DNA from: Staphylococcus phage VB_SavM_JYL01
DNA: 64,000 nucleotides
Reading direction: 5' to 3' (one strand)
Sequence record: MH159197.1
Part shown: in pieces, positions 24,455-43,782 of the stretch
How positions within the stretch are numbered: the stretch's first letter is position 1
How the letters are laid out: the number at the start of each line of letters is the position of its first letter
The notes under the pieces: model-generated
What the model was told of the DNA's origin: nothing
Databases searched by the model: none
The model's input: only the letters and a program-made list of their open reading frames with translations
Made by a program: the position numbers and the translations under genes

Positions 24455-24462
24455 AAAGTTTA

Positions 24463-24500
24463 AGAAACCTATTGACATTAGGTTTCTTTTATTATATACT
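24463..24500 (+). terminator. terminator hairpin with TTGACA in its loop; doubles as promoter TTGACA-16-TATACT
   Basis: agaaacc-tattgacatta-ggtttct followed by ttttattatatact. Confidence 0.6.
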
Positions 24501-25252: not shown

Positions 25253-25489
25253 ATGGAATTTATAGATAAAAATAATGTGATTAAAGCTTACGATATACCA
25301 AATGTTTATTTAAAAGGTTATGTATTACAGGCATGTGATAAAAATGGAGATACAACAGCTTATGATGGTTATGACCAAATACACTATAAAAAAGGTAGAG
25401 TATTAACATTCCCTTTTGATAAACCATTAAGAAAGATAAATGTACTATCAGGATATTACAAACTATTTAAAAAGGAGGACATAATATGA
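25253..25489 (+). CDS. hypothetical protein
   Basis: 78-aa ORF with an SD taggagtga. Confidence 0.5.
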   Translation: MEFIDKNNVIKAYDIPNVYLKGYVLQACDKNGDTTAYDGYDQIHYKKGRVLTFPFDKPLRKINVLSGYYKLFKKEDII

Positions 25490-26013
25490 TTTATTTTGTT
25501 AGTGATTTACATTTTGGTCATGATAATATTAGAGAATTTGAAGCACCTACAAGAAGTCACTGGAACTCAGTAGAAGAGATGGATGAAGGTTTAATTGAGT
25601 TGTGGAATAATACAATTACAAATAACGATATTGTTTATAATATTGGAGACTTCTTTTTCAATATGAAACCGTCTAAAGTAGAAGATATACTTAATAGACT
25701 AAATTACAAAGAGATGATACTGATTGCAGGTAACCATGACCATAAGAAACTTATAAAACTATATGAACGTAATGGTATTACAGTAAAGTACGCAGATATG
25801 ATTAAAAAGGATGGTAAAAGATTTTATCTAAGCCATTACCCTACGCTAATAGGTAGAAAAAACATGTTTAATATTCATGGTCATATACATTCACAGTTAA
25901 TGGATACAGAGTATCACATTAATGTAGGTTATGATGTAGAGGGTAAGATTGCCTATAGTTTTGATGATATTATAAGTAGAGCAGGTGAATATAATGGAGA
26001 AATTCAAAGGTAA
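25486..26013 (+). CDS. calcineurin-like metallophosphatase
   Basis: Motifs SDLHFGHD, GDFF, AGNHD and GHIH are present. The SD is aaaaggagg. Confidence 0.75.
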   Translation: MIYFVSDLHFGHDNIREFEAPTRSHWNSVEEMDEGLIELWNNTITNNDIVYNIGDFFFNMKPSKVEDILNRLNYKEMILIAGNHDHKKLIKLYERNGITVKYADMIKKDGKRFYLSHYPTLIGRKNMFNIHGHIHSQLMDTEYHINVGYDVEGKIAYSFDDIISRAGEYNGEIQR

Positions 26014-27128: not shown

Positions 27129-27782
27129 ATGAAATCAGATGCTATTATAAATTCATTATTAAATATGAAACATATAAATATACAAAAACACAATATAAAA
27201 GTAACACTTGAGAAAGGTAGATATAAGGGTGTAGGGTATCTAATAGAGTTTGAAACCTCAATACAATACAGAAATAATTATAAATTACAATCTCCAATAA
27301 TTATATCTTACGAAAATGAAGAGCCTAAAGAAATCATTACTCAAATTAAAGATAAAGTATTGAAAATTGTAGAAGAGCAGATAAAGACAGATGATTTATT
27401 TATTGAAGCAATTGATGATATTAATAAGGAGACAGCTCTTAGAAAACTAAAGCCTTATATTAATGAAGAATACTACTCAGTGTTTAAATCATCTATTGAT
27501 AAGGGAGTACCTGTAGTTTTACCTTCTGAACTTTTAGATAGATGCACAGGAAAAACATCAACAATGGCTTATTTAGCTATAGAATATGATTTACCTCTTA
27601 TAGTATCAAACACAGTCATGGTTAGAGTGCTATTAAATGATTATCCGACTATTAAAGTTACATCGAAAAAAAGAGAAGGTTACAAAGACTCAATAGTGTT
27701 AATTGACGAGCCTGACTCTGAAATACTAAATCTTTACTTAGGTATGCCTGAGTGTGATATTATTGGTATTACGAAAAAATAA
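27129..27782 (+). CDS. hypothetical protein (degenerate P-loop-like CTGKTST / hhhhDEPD)
   Basis: 217-aa ORF with an SD aaggagg. Confidence 0.6.
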   Translation: MKSDAIINSLLNMKHINIQKHNIKVTLEKGRYKGVGYLIEFETSIQYRNNYKLQSPIIISYENEEPKEIITQIKDKVLKIVEEQIKTDDLFIEAIDDINKETALRKLKPYINEEYYSVFKSSIDKGVPVVLPSELLDRCTGKTSTMAYLAIEYDLPLIVSNTVMVRVLLNDYPTIKVTSKKREGYKDSIVLIDEPDSEILNLYLGMPECDIIGITKK

Positions 27783-27794
27783 ATAAATTTATAA

Positions 27795-27830
27795 ATACCT
27801 GTTGACAACAGGTATTTTTTATAGTATACT
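27795..27830 (+). terminator. terminator hairpin with embedded TTGACA; promoter TTGACA-17-TATACT
   Basis: atacctgtt-gac-aacaggtat followed by tttttt, then atagtatact. Confidence 0.6.
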
Positions 27831-27859
27831 TTAGATATAAAGAAAAAGGAGAGGTTAAC

Positions 27860-28063
27860 ATGAATAACAAACAAATTGAAAGATTACACAAGAAAGCAAA
27901 CGAGGTAGTAAGTAAATCAGAAGATATTGAAGATTTAGGTTATGTGCAGGCACATAAAATTATTAAAGGATATCTTGATTTACCAGTGTCTGATTTTGAA
28001 AAGAGAGATGTAATGACTGAATTACTATTAGCGTTAGATAAAGCTAATAAATCTATAGATTAA
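27860..28063 (+). CDS. hypothetical protein
   Basis: 67-aa ORF with an SD aaaaggagagg. Confidence 0.5.
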   Translation: MNNKQIERLHKKANEVVSKSEDIEDLGYVQAHKIIKGYLDLPVSDFEKRDVMTELLLALDKANKSID

Positions 28064-28078
28064 TAAGGGGGTAGTAAT

Positions 28079-28237
28079 ATGGTAGATATTATAATTTTAA
28101 TTGTCGGTTTAATATTATTTTTAGCTAGCGGATATAAATTAGTTTTAGGTAAATATTATGATAACACAGATTTAAAAATGTTATTTACAATCTTTGGTAT
28201 CGGTACTATACTATTACTTGTAGGATTTATATTATAA
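28079..28237 (+). CDS. 52-aa membrane protein (below the track cutoff)
   Basis: An SD taagggggt sits 7 nt before the ATG. The protein has two TM helices. Confidence 0.5.
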   Translation: MVDIIILIVGLILFLASGYKLVLGKYYDNTDLKMLFTIFGIGTILLLVGFIL

Positions 28238-28252
28238 AGGAGGAAATTATAA

Positions 28253-28477
28253 ATGAACTATAAAGAAGTACTAGAAGTTATTAAAAAGAATAAGCCATGT
28301 AAGGTTAGATTTACTGGAAGTATTTTAGCAATTGTTAATAAGGAATTTAACGCAGATACTGATAAAGGTGTGTTACAAATTGATGTATCAAATATTAATA
28401 AAAATGACTACATTAAGTTACAACAGTATTGTTTAGAAAGAGATGATTATACTGTAGCAGGAGCTATTTTATTTTAA
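28253..28477 (+). CDS. hypothetical protein
   Basis: 74-aa ORF with an SD aaggagg. Confidence 0.5.
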   Translation: MNYKEVLEVIKKNKPCKVRFTGSILAIVNKEFNADTDKGVLQIDVSNINKNDYIKLQQYCLERDDYTVAGAILF

Positions 28478-28489
28478 GGGGGAGTAATT

Positions 28490-28690
28490 ATGAATTATAG
28501 AGATTTTATTACGGATTGTATTAGCGGGGGTTATAACGTCCACATTAGTGTTACTGAGAAAAGAGTTCATATTATTTCAGAAATGACATCAGCATCTTAT
28601 CCGAAGAAAGAAATTAATTTGGATGAACTGCAAGCTTATGTTTATTATATGAATAATTTTGGAAGTCAGATTACAACGGAGGGATTATAA
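28490..28690 (+). CDS. hypothetical protein
   Basis: 66-aa ORF with an SD aagggggag. Confidence 0.5.
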   Translation: MNYRDFITDCISGGYNVHISVTEKRVHIISEMTSASYPKKEINLDELQAYVYYMNNFGSQITTEGL

Positions 28691-28981
28691 ATGGAATTAG
28701 TTATTAATATTATAGCAGTATTAATTGGTATGTACGGTATTTACTTTTATGTTACAAAATTTAGTACTGGTCTATCAGGTATTTTAATTGTACTAGGTAT
28801 GGCTGTAGGTCTTTACTTTTACTTAGATTACTTAAATGTTAGAGAGAATGTTATTCGATTAGTATCTGTAATGTTTGGTGCTTTCTTATTTAGTATCGAG
28901 ATGATTTATAATAAGATTATGTTCGAAATTAAAAAATCTAAGTATGATAAGACTGTTAGAACGTACAGAGGAGACCAATAA
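28691..28981 (+). CDS. membrane protein
   Basis: 96-aa ORF with three TM helices. Confidence 0.55.
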   Translation: MELVINIIAVLIGMYGIYFYVTKFSTGLSGILIVLGMAVGLYFYLDYLNVRENVIRLVSVMFGAFLFSIEMIYNKIMFEIKKSKYDKTVRTYRGDQ

Positions 28982-29073
28982 GAATTTTACTATAAAGAGT
29001 ACTTAAAATAGGTTAAGTGCTCTATATGGTACCTTAAAATGGCTTAGAATTGAAATTAAGGAGATGAAAAGTT

Positions 29074-29367
29074 ATGTATCCTGATATAGGTGAGTTAGCT
29101 TATAAATTAAAAAGTACTAGAGAAAGACTAGAAGGTATTATGATGGAGGAAGTTTGGGAAATACATCATAGAGAGACAGGAAAATTAGTTTTTAAAGGTG
29201 GATACTTAGAAGTAAAAGAAATATTAAGAAAAATGTATAAGGAGAATTTAACATTAGTAGATGTAGACACAATGTTAAATATCGGTCAAGGGTTTTTTGA
29301 TGTTGCTAAAAGTATATCAGCAGAAAATGTATTTCAAATAAACTATAAAAAGGAGTTACCACGATGA
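29074..29367 (+). CDS. hypothetical protein
   Basis: 97-aa ORF with an SD aaggagatg. Confidence 0.55.
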   Translation: MYPDIGELAYKLKSTRERLEGIMMEEVWEIHHRETGKLVFKGGYLEVKEILRKMYKENLTLVDVDTMLNIGQGFFDVAKSISAENVFQINYKKELPR

Positions 29368-30272
29368 TTAAAGTATTTTCAGAAATGGATACAAAATATA
29401 GAACGATTGTACCGGAGAAATTCCCTAATGGAGAAATTAATTTTAAATATGATGACCTAAAATATTTAGTAGAAGGAGAACTATGGTTTGATGTTTTCTT
29501 TAAATGGGAAACTGATGCAGACTTAATGCATTTGTATATGTTTACTAAGTATCTAGAACAATTAGGTATTAAAAATAATGTTTCCTTCCTGGAAATTGCA
29601 TATTTACCTTATAGTAGAATGGATAGAGTAGAAAAAGGTCATAGCAATATGTTTAGTCTTAAGTATATTGCAGAATTTATTAACAATCTTAATTATAAAT
29701 CTGTGTTAATAGCAGAAGCTCATAGCCCTGTCACAGAAAATCTAATTAAAAATTCTGTTTCTATAGGTGTCACACTTAAATTATTAGACCAATATATTGA
29801 AATGTCTGAAGAACCTGCAACAATTGTACTACCGGATAAGGGAGCTTATGACAGATACCTATCTGATGTGGAAGACATCTTAAGGGATTCCAATATTGAA
29901 AATTATTCAATTGTATATGGTGAAAAGAAACGTGATTTTGAAACAGGTAAAATTAAAGGTATTAAAATTGTTAAAGATAAAAATACTCTATATGATAACT
30001 GTATTATACTAGATGATTTAACAAGTTATGGTGGTACATTTGTAGGTTGTAAAAAAGCCCTTGACAATCTTAAGGTAGATAATGTATCATTAATATTGAC
30101 TCATGCAGAAAAAGTATTTCAAGACGGTAAATTATTTGAGTCAGGATTTAAAGATATTATTGTAACAGACTCAATGTTACCTGATAATCAGTGGGAAAAA
30201 GCTATTGCTAAACATAGAGCACAAGAAAACGAAACAGAATTACAAATAAAGAGTATCGAAAGATATTTATAA
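29364..30272 (+). CDS. ribose-phosphate pyrophosphokinase (Prs) family protein, divergent; candidate ADPR-PP synthetase of a NARP1-type pathway
   Basis: Prs-like SRMDRVEK and the PRPP-binding loop LDDLTSYGGT are present. The SD is aaaaaggag. It is adjacent to the NAMPT homologue. Confidence 0.75.
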   Translation: MIKVFSEMDTKYRTIVPEKFPNGEINFKYDDLKYLVEGELWFDVFFKWETDADLMHLYMFTKYLEQLGIKNNVSFLEIAYLPYSRMDRVEKGHSNMFSLKYIAEFINNLNYKSVLIAEAHSPVTENLIKNSVSIGVTLKLLDQYIEMSEEPATIVLPDKGAYDRYLSDVEDILRDSNIENYSIVYGEKKRDFETGKIKGIKIVKDKNTLYDNCIILDDLTSYGGTFVGCKKALDNLKVDNVSLILTHAEKVFQDGKLFESGFKDIIVTDSMLPDNQWEKAIAKHRAQENETELQIKSIERYL

Positions 30273-30289
30273 AAGGAGAAGAATAAACT

Positions 30290-31759
30290 ATGCTAAATCC
30301 AACATTAATGTGTGACTTTTATAAATTAAGTCACAGAGAACAATACCCTGAAGGTACAGAAATTGTATACAGTACACTTGTACCTAGAAGTAATAAGTAC
30401 TATGAACATAGTGATAATATTGTAGTATTTGGTATTCAATCACTTGTTAAAAAATATTTTATTGATATGTTTAATAAAGAATTCTTTAATAGACCTAAAG
30501 AGGAAGTTATTAATGAATATAAACGTACAGTTAAATTCACATTAGGACAAGAAAACCCTGACGCTAAACATTTAGAGCAGTTACATGACCTAGGTTACTT
30601 ACCTATTGATGTAAGAGCTTTAAAAGAAGGTACAGTAGTTCACCCTAATACACCTGTTATGACAATTGAAAATACCCACTCAGATTTCTTTTGGCTAACT
30701 AATTATTTAGAAACTATTATTAGTACTCAAACATGGCAAGCAATGACTAGTGCTACACTAGCATATGATATGCGTAAAATGCTAGATAAGTATGCATTAG
30801 AAACAGTAGGTAATATTGAAGCAGTAGATTTCCAAGGTCATGACTTTAGTATGCGTGGAATGAGTTCATTAGAAACAGCTCAATTAAGCTCTGCAGGACA
30901 TGCAATTAGTTTTAAAGGTAGTGACACTGTACCTGTAGTAGACTTTTTAGAATCTTACTACAATGCAGATGTAGAAAAAGAAATGGTCGTTGCTTCCATC
31001 CCTGCTACCGAACATTCGGTTATGTGTGCAAATGGTGATTACGAGACAATGGATGAATATGAAACATACAAACGTATGTTAACAGAAATTTATCCAACAG
31101 GAGTATTCTCTATTGTATCTGATACTTGGGATTTTTGGGGTAATATGACTAAAACTTTACCTAGATTAAAAGATATTATTATGGAACGTGACGGTAAAGT
31201 AGTAATCAGACCTGATAGCGGAGACCCTGTTAAGATTATTTGTGGAGACCCTGATGCAGATACTGAGTATGAACGTAAAGGTGCTGTAGAAGTACTTTGG
31301 GATACTTTTGGAGGTACTGAAACTGAAAAAGGATATAAAGTACTAGATGAACATGTAGGATTAATCTATGGTGATTCTATTAACTATGAGCGTGCTCAGC
31401 AAATTTGTGAAGGATTAAAAGAAAAAGGTTTTGCAAGTATTAACGTTGTATTAGGTGTAGGTAGCTTCTCTTACCAATTTAATACTCGTGATACTCATGG
31501 GTTTGCAATCAAAGCAACATATGCTAAGATTAAAAATGAAGAGAAACTTATCTATAAGAATCCTAAAACAGACAGTGGGAAACGTTCACATAAAGGTAGA
31601 GTAGCTGTTTACAAAGATGGTTCATGGGAAGATAACCTAACTCTTCATCAGTGGTTAAATAAACAAAATTTAAACCAATTAGAACGAGTATTTGAAGACG
31701 GTAAACTGTACAGAGACCAGTCACTAAGTGAAATTAGAGAAAGAATTAAAAATAATTAA
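30290..31759 (+). CDS. nadV: nicotinamide phosphoribosyltransferase (NAMPT/NadV) family protein
   Basis: 489-aa ORF with NAMPT-type signature GVGSFSYQ. The SD is aaaggagaag. Confidence 0.85.
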   Translation: MLNPTLMCDFYKLSHREQYPEGTEIVYSTLVPRSNKYYEHSDNIVVFGIQSLVKKYFIDMFNKEFFNRPKEEVINEYKRTVKFTLGQENPDAKHLEQLHDLGYLPIDVRALKEGTVVHPNTPVMTIENTHSDFFWLTNYLETIISTQTWQAMTSATLAYDMRKMLDKYALETVGNIEAVDFQGHDFSMRGMSSLETAQLSSAGHAISFKGSDTVPVVDFLESYYNADVEKEMVVASIPATEHSVMCANGDYETMDEYETYKRMLTEIYPTGVFSIVSDTWDFWGNMTKTLPRLKDIIMERDGKVVIRPDSGDPVKIICGDPDADTEYERKGAVEVLWDTFGGTETEKGYKVLDEHVGLIYGDSINYERAQQICEGLKEKGFASINVVLGVGSFSYQFNTRDTHGFAIKATYAKIKNEEKLIYKNPKTDSGKRSHKGRVAVYKDGSWEDNLTLHQWLNKQNLNQLERVFEDGKLYRDQSLSEIRERIKNN

Positions 31760-31779
31760 TAAATATTTAAACTCCCTAT

Positions 31780-31817
31780 TGACAAAGGGAGTTTTTTATT
31801 ATATAGTATAACTATAG
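31780..31817 (+). terminator. terminator hairpin with TTGACA in its loop; promoter TTGACA-17-TATAGT
   Basis: aactccct-attgacaa-agggagtt followed by ttttt, then attatatagt. Confidence 0.65.
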
Positions 31818-31828
31818 TAAATAAAGGA

Positions 31829-32083
31829 GTGAAAGAGATGATTTATAAAATATCAAAACATAATTATTATAGTAGGTTTGAGTATTCTACTTACCCTCCT
31901 GATGAAGGGTTTGCGTATGTAGATTATGTAGATGTGATTCTTATCGGTGTAGATAATCCTAAGAAAAAAAAGGTTATTACCTTAAAAGTAAATGAGTTCA
32001 ATTCGGATGACTATAAAGTAGGTCATAAGTACAATATTATAAAAATACTATGGTTTGAAAAATGGGAATGGTTAAAGCCATAA
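31829..32083 (+). CDS. hypothetical protein
   Basis: 84-aa ORF with an SD aaaggagtg. Confidence 0.5.
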   Translation: MKEMIYKISKHNYYSRFEYSTYPPDEGFAYVDYVDVILIGVDNPKKKKVITLKVNEFNSDDYKVGHKYNIIKILWFEKWEWLKP

Positions 32084-32102
32084 GTAAAAGGAGAGAAATA
32101 AA

Positions 32103-32495
32103 ATGATTATAGATAAATTAAATGGAGTTAAACTAGAAATAAGCGGTCATGTCGTATCATTTAGTGTAAGAAAGTTTGATACAATTAATGGTGAGAGACA
32201 ATTAATAGACTACCATCATATTAAAAGAAATAGACAAAAGTACTTTAGAACTACTGAAGAATTTTATAATGAATATAAAGAAATTAAGCCTGACAAAAAT
32301 GAAATAGATGAAATGTTTGAATCTCTAGGTTACGTAGATACTGAGTTAGATGATGTAGTAAGACACCTGGAAAAGGTTACTGAAATATTAGGAGTTAGTG
32401 AACAATATTTAAATCAGTTATCTTATAAAGCTATAGAAGAGTATGTAGATAAAGTAGTTACACTTGAAATTAAAGAGTTGAAAGGAGAGAAATAG
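32103..32495 (+). CDS. hypothetical protein
   Basis: 130-aa ORF with an SD aaaggagag. Confidence 0.55.
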   Translation: MIIDKLNGVKLEISGHVVSFSVRKFDTINGERQLIDYHHIKRNRQKYFRTTEEFYNEYKEIKPDKNEIDEMFESLGYVDTELDDVVRHLEKVTEILGVSEQYLNQLSYKAIEEYVDKVVTLEIKELKGEK

Positions 32496-32496
32496 C

Positions 32497-32694
32497 ATGA
32501 ATAATAACTGGGAAAAAGAAAGGGTTAACTATTGGGAAAACGAAGACTGTCCGAGGGAATACTTAGAAAAAGCATTCATTGACCTAGTAGAATATGTCGA
32601 AGGAGTTACAGTATCATCTAAAGATGTTAAGCAGTTAAGAGAAGATAAACTTAGAGAAGATATTGGGTTTTATGAGTACGTAGCTGATAAATAA
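32497..32694 (+). CDS. hypothetical protein
   Basis: 65-aa ORF. Confidence 0.5.
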   Translation: MNNNWEKERVNYWENEDCPREYLEKAFIDLVEYVEGVTVSSKDVKQLREDKLREDIGFYEYVADK

Positions 32695-32700
32695 ATTAGT

Positions 32701-32738
32701 ATCTACCTATTGACTTAGGTAGATATCTATTATATAAT
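32701..32738 (+). promoter_or_regulatory. hairpin with TTGACT in its loop; promoter TTGACT-17-TATAAT
   Basis: atctacct-attgactt-aggtagat, then atctattatataat. Confidence 0.55.
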
Positions 32739-43574: not shown

Positions 43575-43712
43575 ATGAGATACGAAATCGTAACATTAGT
43601 TAATGGAGAATTATTCATGTTTGCAACATTTAAGAAAGCAGAGGCAGAAAATAAATATCAAGAATGGTGTGACTTGTACGGTCAAGAAAATGTAAGCATG
43701 GAAAAAAATTAA
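43575..43712 (+). CDS. 45-aa hypothetical protein (below the track cutoff)
   Basis: The leader agaggaattgataattATG follows the hairpin-promoter aaggggttgacattcaacccctt. Confidence 0.4.
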   Translation: MRYEIVTLVNGELFMFATFKKAEAENKYQEWCDLYGQENVSMEKN

Positions 43713-43782
43713 AATAAGGGGTTGACACTTAACCCCTTAGATGTTATTATTAATATATACTAAAGAAAAGGAAATGATAAAA

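What the first reader, a model, noticed from the sequence alone, without database searches (positions are those of the whole stretch)
29364..31759. Adjacent Prs-like kinase plus NAMPT-like transferase: a NARP1-type NAD+ reconstitution (anti-NAD-depletion) pair
A divergent ribose-phosphate pyrophosphokinase homologue is followed 18 bp later by a nicotinamide phosphoribosyltransferase homologue. The Prs-like protein has SRMDRVEK instead of canonical ARQDR, and LDDLTSYGGT in the PRPP loop. The NAMPT homologue carries GVGSFSYQ. This two-gene arrangement matches the recently described phage NAD+ reconstitution pathway type 1. In that pathway a Prs-like enzyme makes ADPR-pyrophosphate, and a NAMPT-like enzyme joins it to nicotinamide to rebuild NAD+. 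This counters NAD-depleting defences such as Thoeris, DSR, SIR2 and SEFIR. The pair may instead be a plain PRPP/NMN salvage pair.
Basis: partly seen in the sequence, partly recalled or inferred. Interest (0 to 1): 0.7.

Follow-up and report, generated by a model that had tools for sequence, protein, structure and literature searches.

The report
Known phage NAD+ rebuilding gene pair
This is the two-gene NAD+ reconstitution pathway 1 (NARP1: Adps plus Namat) of a Staphylococcus phage K-like virus, which most likely rebuilds NAD+ after bacterial defences destroy it; this virus group was already listed as carrying it in the 2024 paper that discovered the pathway.

Summary
Two + strand genes lie 17 nt apart: 29364-30272 (302 aa, Prs-like) and 30290-31759 (489 aa, NAMPT-like). 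All three quoted motifs are present.

The window is a Staphylococcus Kayvirus and is 100% identical to phage vB_SauM-SDQ over the 3.1 kb tested.

The 489-aa protein is 60% identical to the crystallised, biochemically characterised SPbetaL1 Namat (664 bits, against 226 bits for human NAMPT). It carries the published Namat-only adenine-clamp signature as GSFSYQFNTRD.

The 302-aa protein falls inside the phage Adps clade (200/200 bootstraps against canonical Prs). It groups with the experimentally validated SPbetaL1 and FADO enzymes and misses every NCBIfam Prs cut-off. It keeps the catalytic Lys (K188) and the Adps-specific Phe (F226).

So the NARP1 reading is supported: ADPR + ATP gives ADPR-PP, and ADPR-PP + nicotinamide gives NAD+.

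It is not new. Supplementary Tables 1 and 2 of Osterman et al. 2024 already list the phage K, G1, ISP and G15 pairs, and the G15-lineage protein is 96% identical. I found no experiment on a staphylococcal phage, so activity and the counter-defence role remain inferred. No Macro or RyR accessory gene, and no Nmnat, turned up among the ORFs I scanned.

The parts
27793..27830 (+). Putative start of the transcription unit that carries the pair. It is a terminator-like hairpin (27793-27817) whose loop and descending arm hold a sigma-70-type promoter: TTGACA, 17 nt spacer, TATACT (27802-27830).
   Evidence: Consensus scan and my own script. A terminator is annotated at the equivalent site of phage K, KF766114 132814-132843. 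Function is inferred and was not measured here.
29074..29367 (+). 97-aa ORF of unknown function. Its stop codon overlaps the adps start codon (ATGA at 29364-29367). It is co-transcribed with the pair and possibly translationally coupled to it, but it is not a conserved NARP1 component.
   Evidence: It has no Pfam hit and matches phrog_1099, a family of unknown function. Homologues occur only in Staphylococcus phages: 179 records and 3 protein clusters. dN/dS against phage K is 0.105. Listeria and Bacillus Herelleviridae have different genes at this position.
29364..30272 (+). adps: ADP-ribose pyrophosphate synthetase, a Prs-like enzyme of 302 aa. Predicted reaction: ADPR + ATP -> ADPR-PP + AMP.
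   Evidence: In the phylogeny it sits inside the Adps clade (200/200 bootstraps) and inside the Firmicutes-phage subclade with the validated SPbetaL1 and FADO enzymes (200/200). Identity is 38.7% to SPbetaL1 Adps and 18% to E. coli Prs. All 9 NCBIfam Prs models are far below their cut-offs. The AF2 model has pLDDT 94.2 and a PRPS fold, TM 0.68 to human PRPS1.
29610..29639 (+). Adps loop region YSRMDRVEKG (aa 83-92), which corresponds to the 'RF loop' of ICP1 Adps. R85 aligns with ICP1 R87, a contact to the adenine-bearing part of ADPR.
   Evidence: Alignment. YSRMDR is shared with SPbetaL1, FADO and Listeria A511 Adps, whereas canonical Prs has YARQDR/K. The role of R87 is taken from PMC13586617.
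29925..29927 (+). Adps catalytic lysine K188. It lies in the beta-hairpin motif KKRDFETGKIKGIKI.
   Evidence: It aligns with SPbetaL1 K162 (K162A is inactive; Osterman 2024) and with ICP1 K185 (K185A is inactive; PMC13586617). Alignment.
30012..30041 (+). Adps ribose and pyrophosphate site, D217-D218-L-T-S221-Y222-G-G-T225-F226. The DD pair contacts the distal ribose, the phosphate loop is remodelled, and the Phe is the adenine 'lid'.
   Evidence: Phe at this position occurs in 18/18 Adps and 0/8 Prs, which have L or I. S-Y replaces the D-T of the Prs DTGGT loop, as in SPbetaL1 (S-F) and FADO (S-Y). Structural roles are from PMC13586617.
30290..31759 (+). namat: nicotinamide ADP-ribose transferase, a NAMPT-like enzyme of 489 aa. 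Predicted reaction: ADPR-PP + nicotinamide -> NAD+ + PPi.
   Evidence: The best PDB sequence hit is 9W5X/9W5W, SPbetaL1 Namat (664 bits, E 8e-199), against 226 bits for human NAMPT. Identity is 60% to SPbetaL1 Namat and 49% to ICP1 Namat. Of the 20 NAD+-contacting SPbetaL1 residues mapped, 17 are identical; the other three are substitutions that fit the published motif rules (R40->K36, A362->S363, Y396->F397).
30395..30400 (+). Namat selectivity-clamp loop (SCL) residues K36-Y37. They are the predicted auxiliary adenine-stacking element.
   Evidence: Alignment. SPbetaL1 has R40 and ICP1 has K38-Y39. [quoted passage not shown] The stacking itself was not modelled here.
31460..31492 (+). Namat selectivity-clamp helix (SCH) signature GSFSYQFNTRD (aa 391-401). 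F393 and F397 are the predicted adenine-stacking aromatics.
   Evidence: It matches the motif GSX-Phi1-X-Phi2-X-Phi3-TRD of PMC12774641, confirmed by a regular-expression match. Xanthomonas Nampt has GGALLQKVDRD at the same place.
31769..31794 (+). Intrinsic terminator-like hairpin 10 nt after the namat stop codon (AAACTCCCT...AGGGAGTTT followed by a T run). It probably marks the end of the transcription unit. It also contains the -35 box of the next promoter (31779-31807).
   Evidence: A terminator is annotated at the equivalent site in phage K, KF766114 136378-136397.

Best explanation
The two genes are the NARP1 module (adps followed by namat) of a Staphylococcus Kayvirus.

The proposed mechanism is as follows. 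[quoted passage not shown] Namat then displaces that pyrophosphate with nicotinamide and regenerates NAD+ directly. The phage therefore keeps replicating in NAD+-depleting hosts.

The pair appears to sit at the 3' end of an eight-ORF unit. That unit begins at a consensus sigma-70 ('early'-type) promoter at 27802-27830 and ends at a terminator at 31769-31794.

Shown here: the gene structure, family and clade membership, the diagnostic residues, and conservation under purifying selection. Inferred by homology to the SPbetaL1, FADO, Bas63 and ICP1 enzymes: the two reactions and the counter-defence role.
For: Namat:
- It scores 664 bits (E 8e-199) against the SPbetaL1 Namat crystal-structure sequences 9W5X/9W5W, and 226 bits against human NAMPT. 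The PDB codes are assigned to Namat in PMC12774641.
- It is 60% identical to SPbetaL1 Namat.
- The SCH signature GSFSYQFNTRD and the SCL pair K36-Y37 are present, and the catalytic-core residues D9, Y11, F186, R189, D212, R307 and D309 are conserved.
- A true Nampt lacks the aromatic residues of that signature.

Adps:
- In the NJ tree the split between canonical Prs and Adps has 200/200 support. The subclade with SPbetaL1 and FADO Adps also has 200/200 support.
- K188 aligns with the catalytic K162/K185. F226 aligns with ICP1 F221 and is Adps-specific (18/18 Adps against 0/8 Prs). The TGxI hairpin is present, and SYGGT replaces DTGGT.
- TIGR01251 scores 76 bits against a cut-off of 113. The eight other NCBIfam Prs models score 21-68 bits against cut-offs of 296-536.
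- The AF2 model has a PRPS fold at pLDDT 94.

Context:
- The genes are 17 nt apart, each with its own AGGAG site. The order adps then namat is the same in SPbetaL1, ICP1, Listeria LP-048 and Bacillus BPS10C.
- Osterman et al. found Namat next to 97% of Adps-clade genes. They list the phage K, G1, ISP, A5W, S25-3, phiSA12 and G15 proteins with 'Namat within 10 genes = Yes', and the G1 and G15 Namats as 'Adps-associated'.
- Biochemistry of the nearest homologue: SPbetaL1 Adps gave ADPR-PP from ADPR and ATP and gave no measurable product in the control reaction intended to test Prs activity. SPbetaL1 Namat made only NAD+ when offered ADPR-PP and PRPP together.
- dN/dS against phage K is 0.175 for Adps and 0.014 for Namat.
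Against: - No enzymatic, metabolomic or genetic test exists for any staphylococcal-phage NARP1 in the literature I could search.
- Identity to the nearest biochemically validated Adps is only about 39%.
- The phosphate loop (T-S-Y-G-G-T) differs from the structurally characterised ICP1 loop (C-D-G-A-A-S). The protein also keeps a C-terminal helix and strand (aa 276-296) that ICP1 Adps lacks. The ICP1 structural details therefore cannot all be transferred.
- Namat enzymes retain PRPP-to-NMN activity in vitro (PMC12774641), so some NMN synthesis is possible.
- My tree contained no Firmicutes housekeeping Prs.
- I did not establish which NAD+-depleting systems staphylococci actually use against Kayviruses.
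Confidence: 0.88

Rival explanations
1. Plain salvage pair. The first enzyme is a true PRPP synthetase and the second a true Nampt. Together they make NMN, which host enzymes then convert to NAD+. This would be an incomplete NARP2-like route.
For: This is what the database names say: 'ribose-phosphate pyrophosphokinase' and 'nicotinamide phosphoribosyltransferase' in most Kayvirus records. The NCBIfam model NF006629 passes its cut-off (566 bits against 405) for the second protein. The core catalytic residues R, H, D, K and DD are shared by Prs and Adps and so cannot discriminate between them. Namat can make NMN from PRPP in vitro.
Against: The first protein fails every Prs model cut-off. It is separated from canonical Prs by 200/200 bootstraps and has lost the D-T of the ribose-5-phosphate loop. 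The second protein has the Namat-only clamp signature. No Nmnat, NadR or NUDIX gene was found among the neighbours or among the larger ORFs I scanned (20 of the window's ORFs). Osterman's Table S2 classes the G15 and G1 proteins as 'Adps-associated', not 'Nmnat-associated'. For Bas63, deleting the host NMN-to-NAD routes (pncC and nadR) did not abolish the effect.
Confidence: 0.05
2. The chemistry is NARP1 but the purpose is housekeeping rather than counter-defence. The pair would recycle ADPR and nicotinamide produced by ordinary host or phage NAD+-consuming enzymes, sustaining NAD+ during a large-genome lytic infection.
For: The module is nearly universal in Kayviruses whatever the host strain (190 records with at least 80% coverage). 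NARP1 homologues also occur in non-mobile bacterial regions, which has been taken to suggest housekeeping roles (PMC11724313; PMC12774641). The pair appears to be expressed from an ordinary early-type promoter.
Against: In Bas63 infections, ADPR-PP appeared only when an NADase defence system was present, and NARP1 phages did not raise NAD+ in cells lacking a defence. Deletion phenotypes in Bas63 and FADO were specific to the defence system.
Confidence: 0.05
3. The module is a three-gene, lineage-specific extended NARP1. On this reading the overlapping upstream 97-aa ORF is a functional partner, for example a regulator, a signal sponge, or an enzyme that processes an ADPR derivative, analogous to Adpp or RyDEP.
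For: Its stop codon overlaps the adps start codon (ATGA). It is conserved with the pair in 179 Staphylococcus phage records and is under purifying selection (dN/dS 0.105). Accessory genes inside NARP1 operons have precedent: the Macro-domain Adpp and the RyR-domain RyDEP.
Against: It has no Macro, RyR or any other Pfam match, even at E<=1. It is found only in Staphylococcus phage records. Listeria and Bacillus Herelleviridae have unrelated genes at this position. Four-base overlaps are common in these densely packed phage genomes. The AF2 model is uninformative at pLDDT 52.
Confidence: 0.02

Closest known systems
NARP1 of Bacillus phage SPbetaL1 (Adps WIT26982.1 and Namat WIT26983.1; Osterman et al. 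2024; Namat structures 9W5X/9W5W)
   Same: The gene order and tight spacing are the same. Namat is 60% identical, with the same SCH motif type (GSFTYQYNTRD in SPbetaL1, GSFSYQFNTRD here) and the same catalytic core. Adps is 39% identical and lies in the same Firmicutes-phage subclade. It shares YSRMDR, the catalytic Lys, DDL-[ST]-S-[FY]-GGTF and a C-terminal helix-strand extension.
   Different: The SCL residue is K36-Y37 here instead of R40. Adps has 30 more residues, mostly N-terminal and an insert around aa 165-180. The host phage is a virulent Herelleviridae myovirus, not a temperate SPbeta-like phage. No biochemistry exists for this copy.
NARP1 of Vibrio phage ICP1 (Adps gp228, the subject of the 2026 Adps structure paper PMC13586617; Namat gp229)
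   Same: The acceptor and catalytic residues align: R87/R85, H121/H120, D161/D158, K185/K188, D212-D213/D217-D218 and F221/F226 (ICP1/here). The Namat SCL is K-Y in both.
   Different: Adps identity is only 23-25%. The phosphate loop is CDGAAS in ICP1 and TSYGGT here. ICP1 F92 is E90 here and F223 is G228. ICP1 Adps ends soon after the last core strand, whereas this protein has about 30 more residues (helix 276-288, strand 292-296).
Kayvirus 'ribose-phosphate pyrophosphokinase / nicotinamide phosphoribosyltransferase' pairs: phage K ORF110/ORF111 and G15 ORF202/ORF203
   Same: These are orthologues at the same locus with the same flanking terminators. The closest Kayvirus Adps relative found (P0001, phage SYL) is 96% identical. 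Phage K Adps is 82.5% identical and phage K Namat 98.8% identical. They are already tabulated as Adps/Namat homologues in Osterman et al. Tables S1 and S2.
   Different: Nothing material differs. In the deposited SDQ record the adps gene is labelled only 'hypothetical protein'.
Canonical class I PRPP synthetase (E. coli Prs, human PRPS1)
   Same: The two-domain PRPS fold is shared (TM about 0.68). So are the conserved R, H, D, K and DD catalytic residues.
   Different: Identity is 16-19%. The protein is below all family cut-offs. DTGGT[LI] reads SYGGTF. The RDxxTGxI hairpin is absent from Prs. The C-terminus is shorter. The gene sits next to namat.
NARP2 of Vibrio phage KVP40 (Nampt NadV plus Nmnat NatV) and bona fide Nampt (human, Xanthomonas)
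   Same: The NAPRTase/NAMPT_N fold and the nicotinamide and ribose-phosphate contacts are the same.
   Different: I found no Nmnat partner. The adenine-clamp aromatics are present here and absent in Nampt (GGALLQKVDRD in Xanthomonas). KVP40 Nampt prefers PRPP. I could not retrieve the KVP40 sequence, so there is no direct alignment to it.

Membership tests
NARP1 - Adps (ADPR-PP synthetase) | Falls in the phage Adps clade, separate from prokaryotic Prs (Osterman et al. 2024, Fig. 3C). | tested here: met
   NJ tree of 18 Adps-type and 8 canonical Prs sequences: the Prs | Adps split has 200/200 bootstraps, and the window protein groups with SPbetaL1 and FADO at 200/200. Caveats: this is a distance method, and no Firmicutes Prs was included.
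NARP1 - Adps (ADPR-PP synthetase) | Catalytic lysine of the beta-hairpin (SPbetaL1 K162, ICP1 K185) and the acceptor-site residues R87, H121, D161, D212 and D213. | tested here: met
   K188, R85, H120, D158, D217 and D218 align. These residues are also conserved in Prs, so the test is necessary but does not discriminate.
NARP1 - Adps (ADPR-PP synthetase) | Remodelled donor site: the PP loop and the Phe lid over the ATP adenine (ICP1 C215-S220, F221, F223). | tested here: inconclusive
   F226 aligns with F221, which is Phe in 18/18 Adps and L or I in 8/8 Prs. However, the loop sequence TSYGGT resembles SPbetaL1 and FADO, not ICP1's CDGAAS, and ICP1 F223 is G228 here. No ligand-bound model was made.
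NARP1 - Adps (ADPR-PP synthetase) | Loss of the Prs C-terminal alpha11-alpha12 module and of allosteric regulation (PMC13586617). | tested here: inconclusive
   In the alignment the protein ends about 18 residues before the end of E. coli Prs. It nevertheless retains a helix (276-288) and a strand (292-296) after the core, unlike ICP1 Adps. Regulation cannot be tested with these tools.
NARP1 - Adps (ADPR-PP synthetase) | Catalyses ADPR + ATP -> ADPR-PP and does not make PRPP. | not testable with these tools
   This needs purified protein and LC-MS. It has been shown only for the SPbetaL1 and ICP1 homologues.
NARP1 - Namat (nicotinamide ADPR transferase) | SCH signature GS-X-Phi1-X-Phi2-X-Phi3-TRD, with aromatic X residues (PMC12774641). 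| tested here: met
   GSFSYQFNTRD at aa 391-401. Phi1 = S, Phi2 = Q and Phi3 = N all fall within the published preferences. Xanthomonas Nampt lacks the aromatics.
NARP1 - Namat (nicotinamide ADPR transferase) | SCL loop provides an adenine-stacking residue: either Arg, or Lys/Tyr followed by the stacking residue. | tested here: met
   K36-Y37 aligns with SPbetaL1 R40 and with ICP1 K38-Y39. This is a sequence pattern only; the stacking geometry was not modelled.
NARP1 - Namat (nicotinamide ADPR transferase) | Intact Nampt-like catalytic core (SPbetaL1 D13, Y15, F189, R192, D215, R306, D308). | tested here: met
   D9, Y11, F186, R189, D212, R307 and D309 are all identical.
NARP1 - Namat (nicotinamide ADPR transferase) | Prefers ADPR-PP over PRPP and forms NAD+ directly. 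| not testable with these tools
   A biochemical assay is required. It has been shown for SPbetaL1 Namat.
NARP1 - operon | adps and namat are adjacent (Namat lies within 10 genes of 97% of Adps-clade genes). | tested here: met
   The two genes are 17 nt apart on the same strand, between one promoter and one terminator.
NARP1 - operon | Rescues the phage from NAD+-depleting defence systems (Thoeris, DSR, SIR2-HerA, SEFIR). | not testable with these tools
   I found no published test in a staphylococcal system.
NARP1-AP / RyDEP-extended NARP1 | A Macro-domain phosphatase (Adpp) or a RyR-domain glycosidase (RyDEP, PF02026) lies in or beside the operon. | tested here: not met
   The ten neighbouring ORFs from 27129 to 32694 show no Macro or RyR hit, even at E<=1. 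The nearest phosphoesterase (25486-26013) is a calcineurin-like metallophosphatase in another transcription unit.
Canonical PRPP synthetase (Prs) | Reaches the family model cut-offs and retains the DTGGT ribose-5-phosphate loop. | tested here: not met
   TIGR01251 scores 76 bits against 113. The other NCBIfam Prs models score 21-68 bits against cut-offs of 296-536, and Pfam Pribosyltran_N scores 17 against 25. The loop reads SYGGT.
NARP2 (Nampt + Nmnat) | An Nmnat or NUDIX bifunctional partner is encoded in the genome, and the Nampt is PRPP-preferring. | tested here: inconclusive
   No such domain was found in the 20 ORFs scanned or in the G15 annotation of this arm. Osterman's Table S2 labels the G1 and G15 proteins 'Adps-associated'. 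The 77 kb of the genome outside the window was not scanned.

The most novel reading that the evidence does not exclude
The Kayvirus-restricted 97-aa ORF (29074-29367), whose stop codon overlaps the adps start codon, could be a lineage-specific third component of the module. It might, for example, sense or process an ADPR-derived molecule or regulate the pathway. That would make this an extended NARP1 comparable to NARP1-AP (Adpp) or RyDEP-NARP1, but built on a new fold.
Probability: 0.04. Interest if true: 0.45.

Novelty: already known. Interest (0 to 1): 0.12.

Why it matters
Kayviruses such as phage K, ISP, G15 and their relatives are the main therapeutic phages against Staphylococcus aureus. 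Carrying NARP1 would help explain how they tolerate NAD+-depleting abortive-infection systems, and it bears on choosing or engineering therapy phages. The practical gain here is modest: the SDQ record labels adps 'hypothetical protein', and most records call the pair Prs/Nampt, which is the wrong chemistry. The biology itself was published in 2024 with this phage group already in the supplementary tables, so the finding confirms known facts and corrects annotation rather than discovering anything.

Tried and rejected
- PHROG membership does not discriminate. phrog_619 is hit by the window protein (294 bits) and by validated Adps, but also by E. coli Prs at 193 bits.
- PDB sequence and fold searches for an Adps structure found only canonical Prs. 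The ICP1 Adps entries are not in the copies searched. I therefore took the ICP1 sequence from GenBank record MW794148 and mapped residues by alignment.
- I looked for accessory NARP1 genes (Macro/Adpp, RyR/RyDEP, Nmnat, NUDIX) with Pfam at E<=1 on the ten neighbouring ORFs and at E<=0.01 on ten larger ORFs. Nothing relevant turned up.
- The upstream 97-aa ORF led nowhere. tblastn and the 5.8-billion-protein search found only Staphylococcus-phage homologues. AF2 on the 4-sequence alignment gave pLDDT 52, too poor for a fold search, so none was run.
- I could not retrieve the KVP40 Nampt sequence for a direct Namat-versus-NARP2 comparison, because the stored supplementary table is truncated. I used Xanthomonas Nampt from the PDB alignment instead.
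- I tested whether the NARP1 locus is a divergence hot spot relative to phage K. It is not: 86.8% nucleotide identity, within the 73-93% range of this genome arm.
- Kayvirus transcriptome papers do not mention these genes in their main text, so 'early' expression rests on the promoter consensus alone.
- I did not use the metagenome or genome scans or the 1.84-billion-representative search, because the question was settled without them.

Full report
**What is there**

The window has low G+C (about 29%) and is packed with short same-strand ORFs. The 3.1 kb around the finding is 100% identical to Staphylococcus phage vB_SauM-SDQ (Herelleviridae, Twortvirinae, Kayvirus). It is 98.6% identical to G15-type Kayviruses and 80-90% identical to about 138 others, a band that includes phage K. 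In all, 202 phage records match, 200 of them from Staphylococcus phages.

The two ORFs sit exactly where reported: 29364-30272 (302 aa) and 30290-31759 (489 aa), both on the + strand and separated by 17 nt. Each has its own AGGAG ribosome-binding site.

**The NAMPT-like protein is a Namat**

Pfam finds NAPRTase and NAMPT_N. Against all PDB sequences the best hits are 9W5X and 9W5W at 664 bits (E 8e-199). Human, mouse and rat NAMPT score about 226 bits, and Xanthomonas Nampt scores 190-200 bits.

PMC12774641 identifies 9W5X and 9W5W as the crystal structures of SPbetaL1 Namat bound to nicotinamide and to NAD+. That paper defines what separates Namat from Nampt: an adenine 'selectivity clamp'. 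The clamp consists of a conserved helix motif, GS-X-Phi1-X-Phi2-X-Phi3-TRD with aromatic X residues, and a variable loop that supplies a further stacking residue.

The window protein is 60% identical to SPbetaL1 Namat and 49% identical to ICP1 Namat. It reads GSFSYQFNTRD at residues 391-401. Its loop has K36-Y37, as in ICP1 (K38-Y39). All nicotinamide, ribose-phosphate and AMP-phosphate contacts are conserved, including R307, which aligns with R306; R306G and R306A mutants are inactive. Xanthomonas Nampt has GGALLQKVDRD at the clamp position.

**The Prs-like protein is an Adps**

It is a weak Prs by every curated model. Pfam Pribosyltran_N scores 17 bits against a cut-off of 25. TIGR01251 scores 76 against 113. 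The eight other NCBIfam Prs models score 21-68 bits against cut-offs of 296-536.

Its best tblastn hit outside Staphylococcus phages in the sampled hit list is SPbetaL1 gene 190 (38% identity, E 8e-30), followed by Herelleviridae of Bacillus and Listeria. SPbetaL1 gene 190 is the enzyme Osterman et al. purified. They showed it makes ADPR-PP from ADPR and ATP, and it gave no measurable product in the control reaction meant to test Prs activity.

I built a tree from 18 Adps-type sequences and 8 canonical Prs sequences. The Adps set included the validated SPbetaL1, FADO, Bas63 and ICP1 enzymes, taken from GenBank loci and from Osterman's Table S1. The Prs | Adps split had 200/200 bootstrap support. 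The window protein sat in a Firmicutes-phage subclade with SPbetaL1 and FADO, also at 200/200.

Residue mapping shows two things. First, the shared catalytic set is intact: R85, H120, D158, K188, D217 and D218. K188 aligns with SPbetaL1 K162 and ICP1 K185, both essential. Second, the positions that differ between Adps and Prs follow Adps:
- F226 aligns with ICP1 F221, the lid over the ATP adenine. This position is Phe in 18/18 Adps and Leu or Ile in 8/8 Prs.
- The hairpin motif RDxxTGxI is present.
- The phosphate loop is SYGGT where Prs has DTGGT.

An AF2 model (pLDDT 94.2) has the PRPS fold, with TM about 0.68 and 19% identity to human PRPS1.

**Differences from the structurally characterised ICP1 Adps**

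Identity to ICP1 Adps is only about 23-25%. The loop is TSYGGT rather than CDGAAS. ICP1 F92 and F223 have no aromatic counterpart here. The protein also keeps a C-terminal helix (276-288) and strand (292-296) that ICP1 Adps lacks. All of these features are shared with SPbetaL1 Adps, which is biochemically validated. I therefore read them as subclade traits rather than as signs of a different activity, though the ICP1 donor-site details cannot be carried over wholesale.

**Context**

A terminator-like hairpin containing a consensus promoter (TTGACA, 17 nt, TATACT; 27793-27830) precedes a run of six small ORFs and then adps and namat. A second such hairpin lies 10 nt after the namat stop codon (31769-31794). 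Phage K's curated record annotates terminators at both equivalent sites. Kayvirus transcriptomics describes strong sigma-70-type early promoters driving 81% of genes. Early, host-polymerase-dependent expression is therefore a reasonable inference, but it was not measured for these genes.

The adps-then-namat order recurs in SPbetaL1, ICP1, Listeria LP-048 and Bacillus BPS10C, with unrelated neighbours in each case. I found no Macro (Adpp), RyR (RyDEP), Nmnat or NUDIX gene in the neighbourhood or among the larger ORFs I scanned (20 of the window's ORFs). This is therefore the plain two-gene NARP1, not NARP1-AP, RyDEP-NARP1 or NARP2. Against phage K both genes are under purifying selection: dN/dS is 0.175 for Adps and 0.014 for Namat.

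**Mechanism**

By homology, a host NADase cleaves NAD+ into ADPR and nicotinamide. Adps then pyrophosphorylates the terminal ribose of ADPR using ATP. Namat replaces that pyrophosphate with nicotinamide, which restores NAD+.

Shown here: gene structure, family and clade membership, diagnostic residues, and conservation. Inferred: both reactions and the anti-defence role. I put 0.88 on this explanation. The rivals are a plain PRPP/NMN salvage pair (0.05), NARP1 chemistry serving a housekeeping purpose (0.05), and a three-gene extended module that includes the 97-aa ORF (0.02).

**Novelty**

The finding is already known. Supplementary Table 1 of Osterman et al. 2024 lists the phage K, G1, ISP, A5W, S25-3, phiSA12, phiSA039 and G15 proteins with 'Namat within 10 genes = Yes'. 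Table 2 lists the G1 and G15 Namats as 'Adps-associated'. These are counted among the 859 NARP1 phages. The closest Kayvirus Adps relative I found (P0001, phage SYL) is 96% identical to the window's.

I found no experiment on a staphylococcal NARP1. What remains open is confirmation in this host, not the concept. Interest is low.

Noticed in passing
window 24462-24488, 27793-27817, 31769-31794, 32699-32726, 43715-43739 (+ strand): Five composite elements recur. Each is a terminator-like hairpin (9-11 bp stem followed by a T-rich tail) whose loop or descending arm contains a consensus TTGACA -35 box, with a TATAAT-like -10 box exactly 17 nt downstream. One structure could therefore both end a transcription unit and start the next.
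   Followed up: partly
window 29074-29367: This 97-aa ORF has its stop codon overlapping the adps start codon (ATGA). Homologues were found only in Staphylococcus phage records (179 records, 3 protein clusters). dN/dS against phage K is 0.105. It has no Pfam hit, and the AF2 model reached only pLDDT 52. Its function is unknown.
   Followed up: yes
window 29364-31759 compared with phage K (L006 12306-14701): The two partners have diverged very unequally. Namat is 98.8% identical in protein to phage K (dN/dS 0.014), whereas Adps is only 82.5% identical (dN/dS 0.175), although synonymous divergence is similar (dS 0.49 and 0.59). Adps seems much freer to change than Namat.
   Followed up: partly
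window 25486-26013: A 175-aa calcineurin-like metallophosphoesterase (Pfam Metallophos, 3.6e-08) lies 3.3 kb upstream of adps in a different transcription unit. Its substrate is unknown. It is not the Macro-type ADPR-1''-phosphatase that accompanies some NARP1 operons.
   Followed up: partly
L007 1775-2962 (Listeria phage LP-048): In this Listeria Herelleviridae phage a 395-aa hypothetical gene overlaps the adps start by 4 nt. This is the same geometry as the Kayvirus 97-aa ORF, but the protein differs in length and annotation and was not among the 97-aa ORF's tblastn hits. I did not examine it further.
   Followed up: no
PDB entries 9KE8/9KEO (not in the window): A solved 'nicotinamide phosphoribosyltransferase' of unstated origin scores 532 bits to the window Namat. 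At the clamp it carries a variant motif, GAQTYQRNTRD, in which two of the three aromatic positions are replaced. It may be a Namat-like enzyme with a different clamp.
   Followed up: no
window ~43600 and ~46000: Going by the coordinate offset to PP661519.1 (140,997 bp, deposited as circular), the window should run past the end of that record near window position 43601. Coding strand and GC skew flip near 46 kb. I inferred the record junction from the offset and did not check it by alignment.
   Followed up: no
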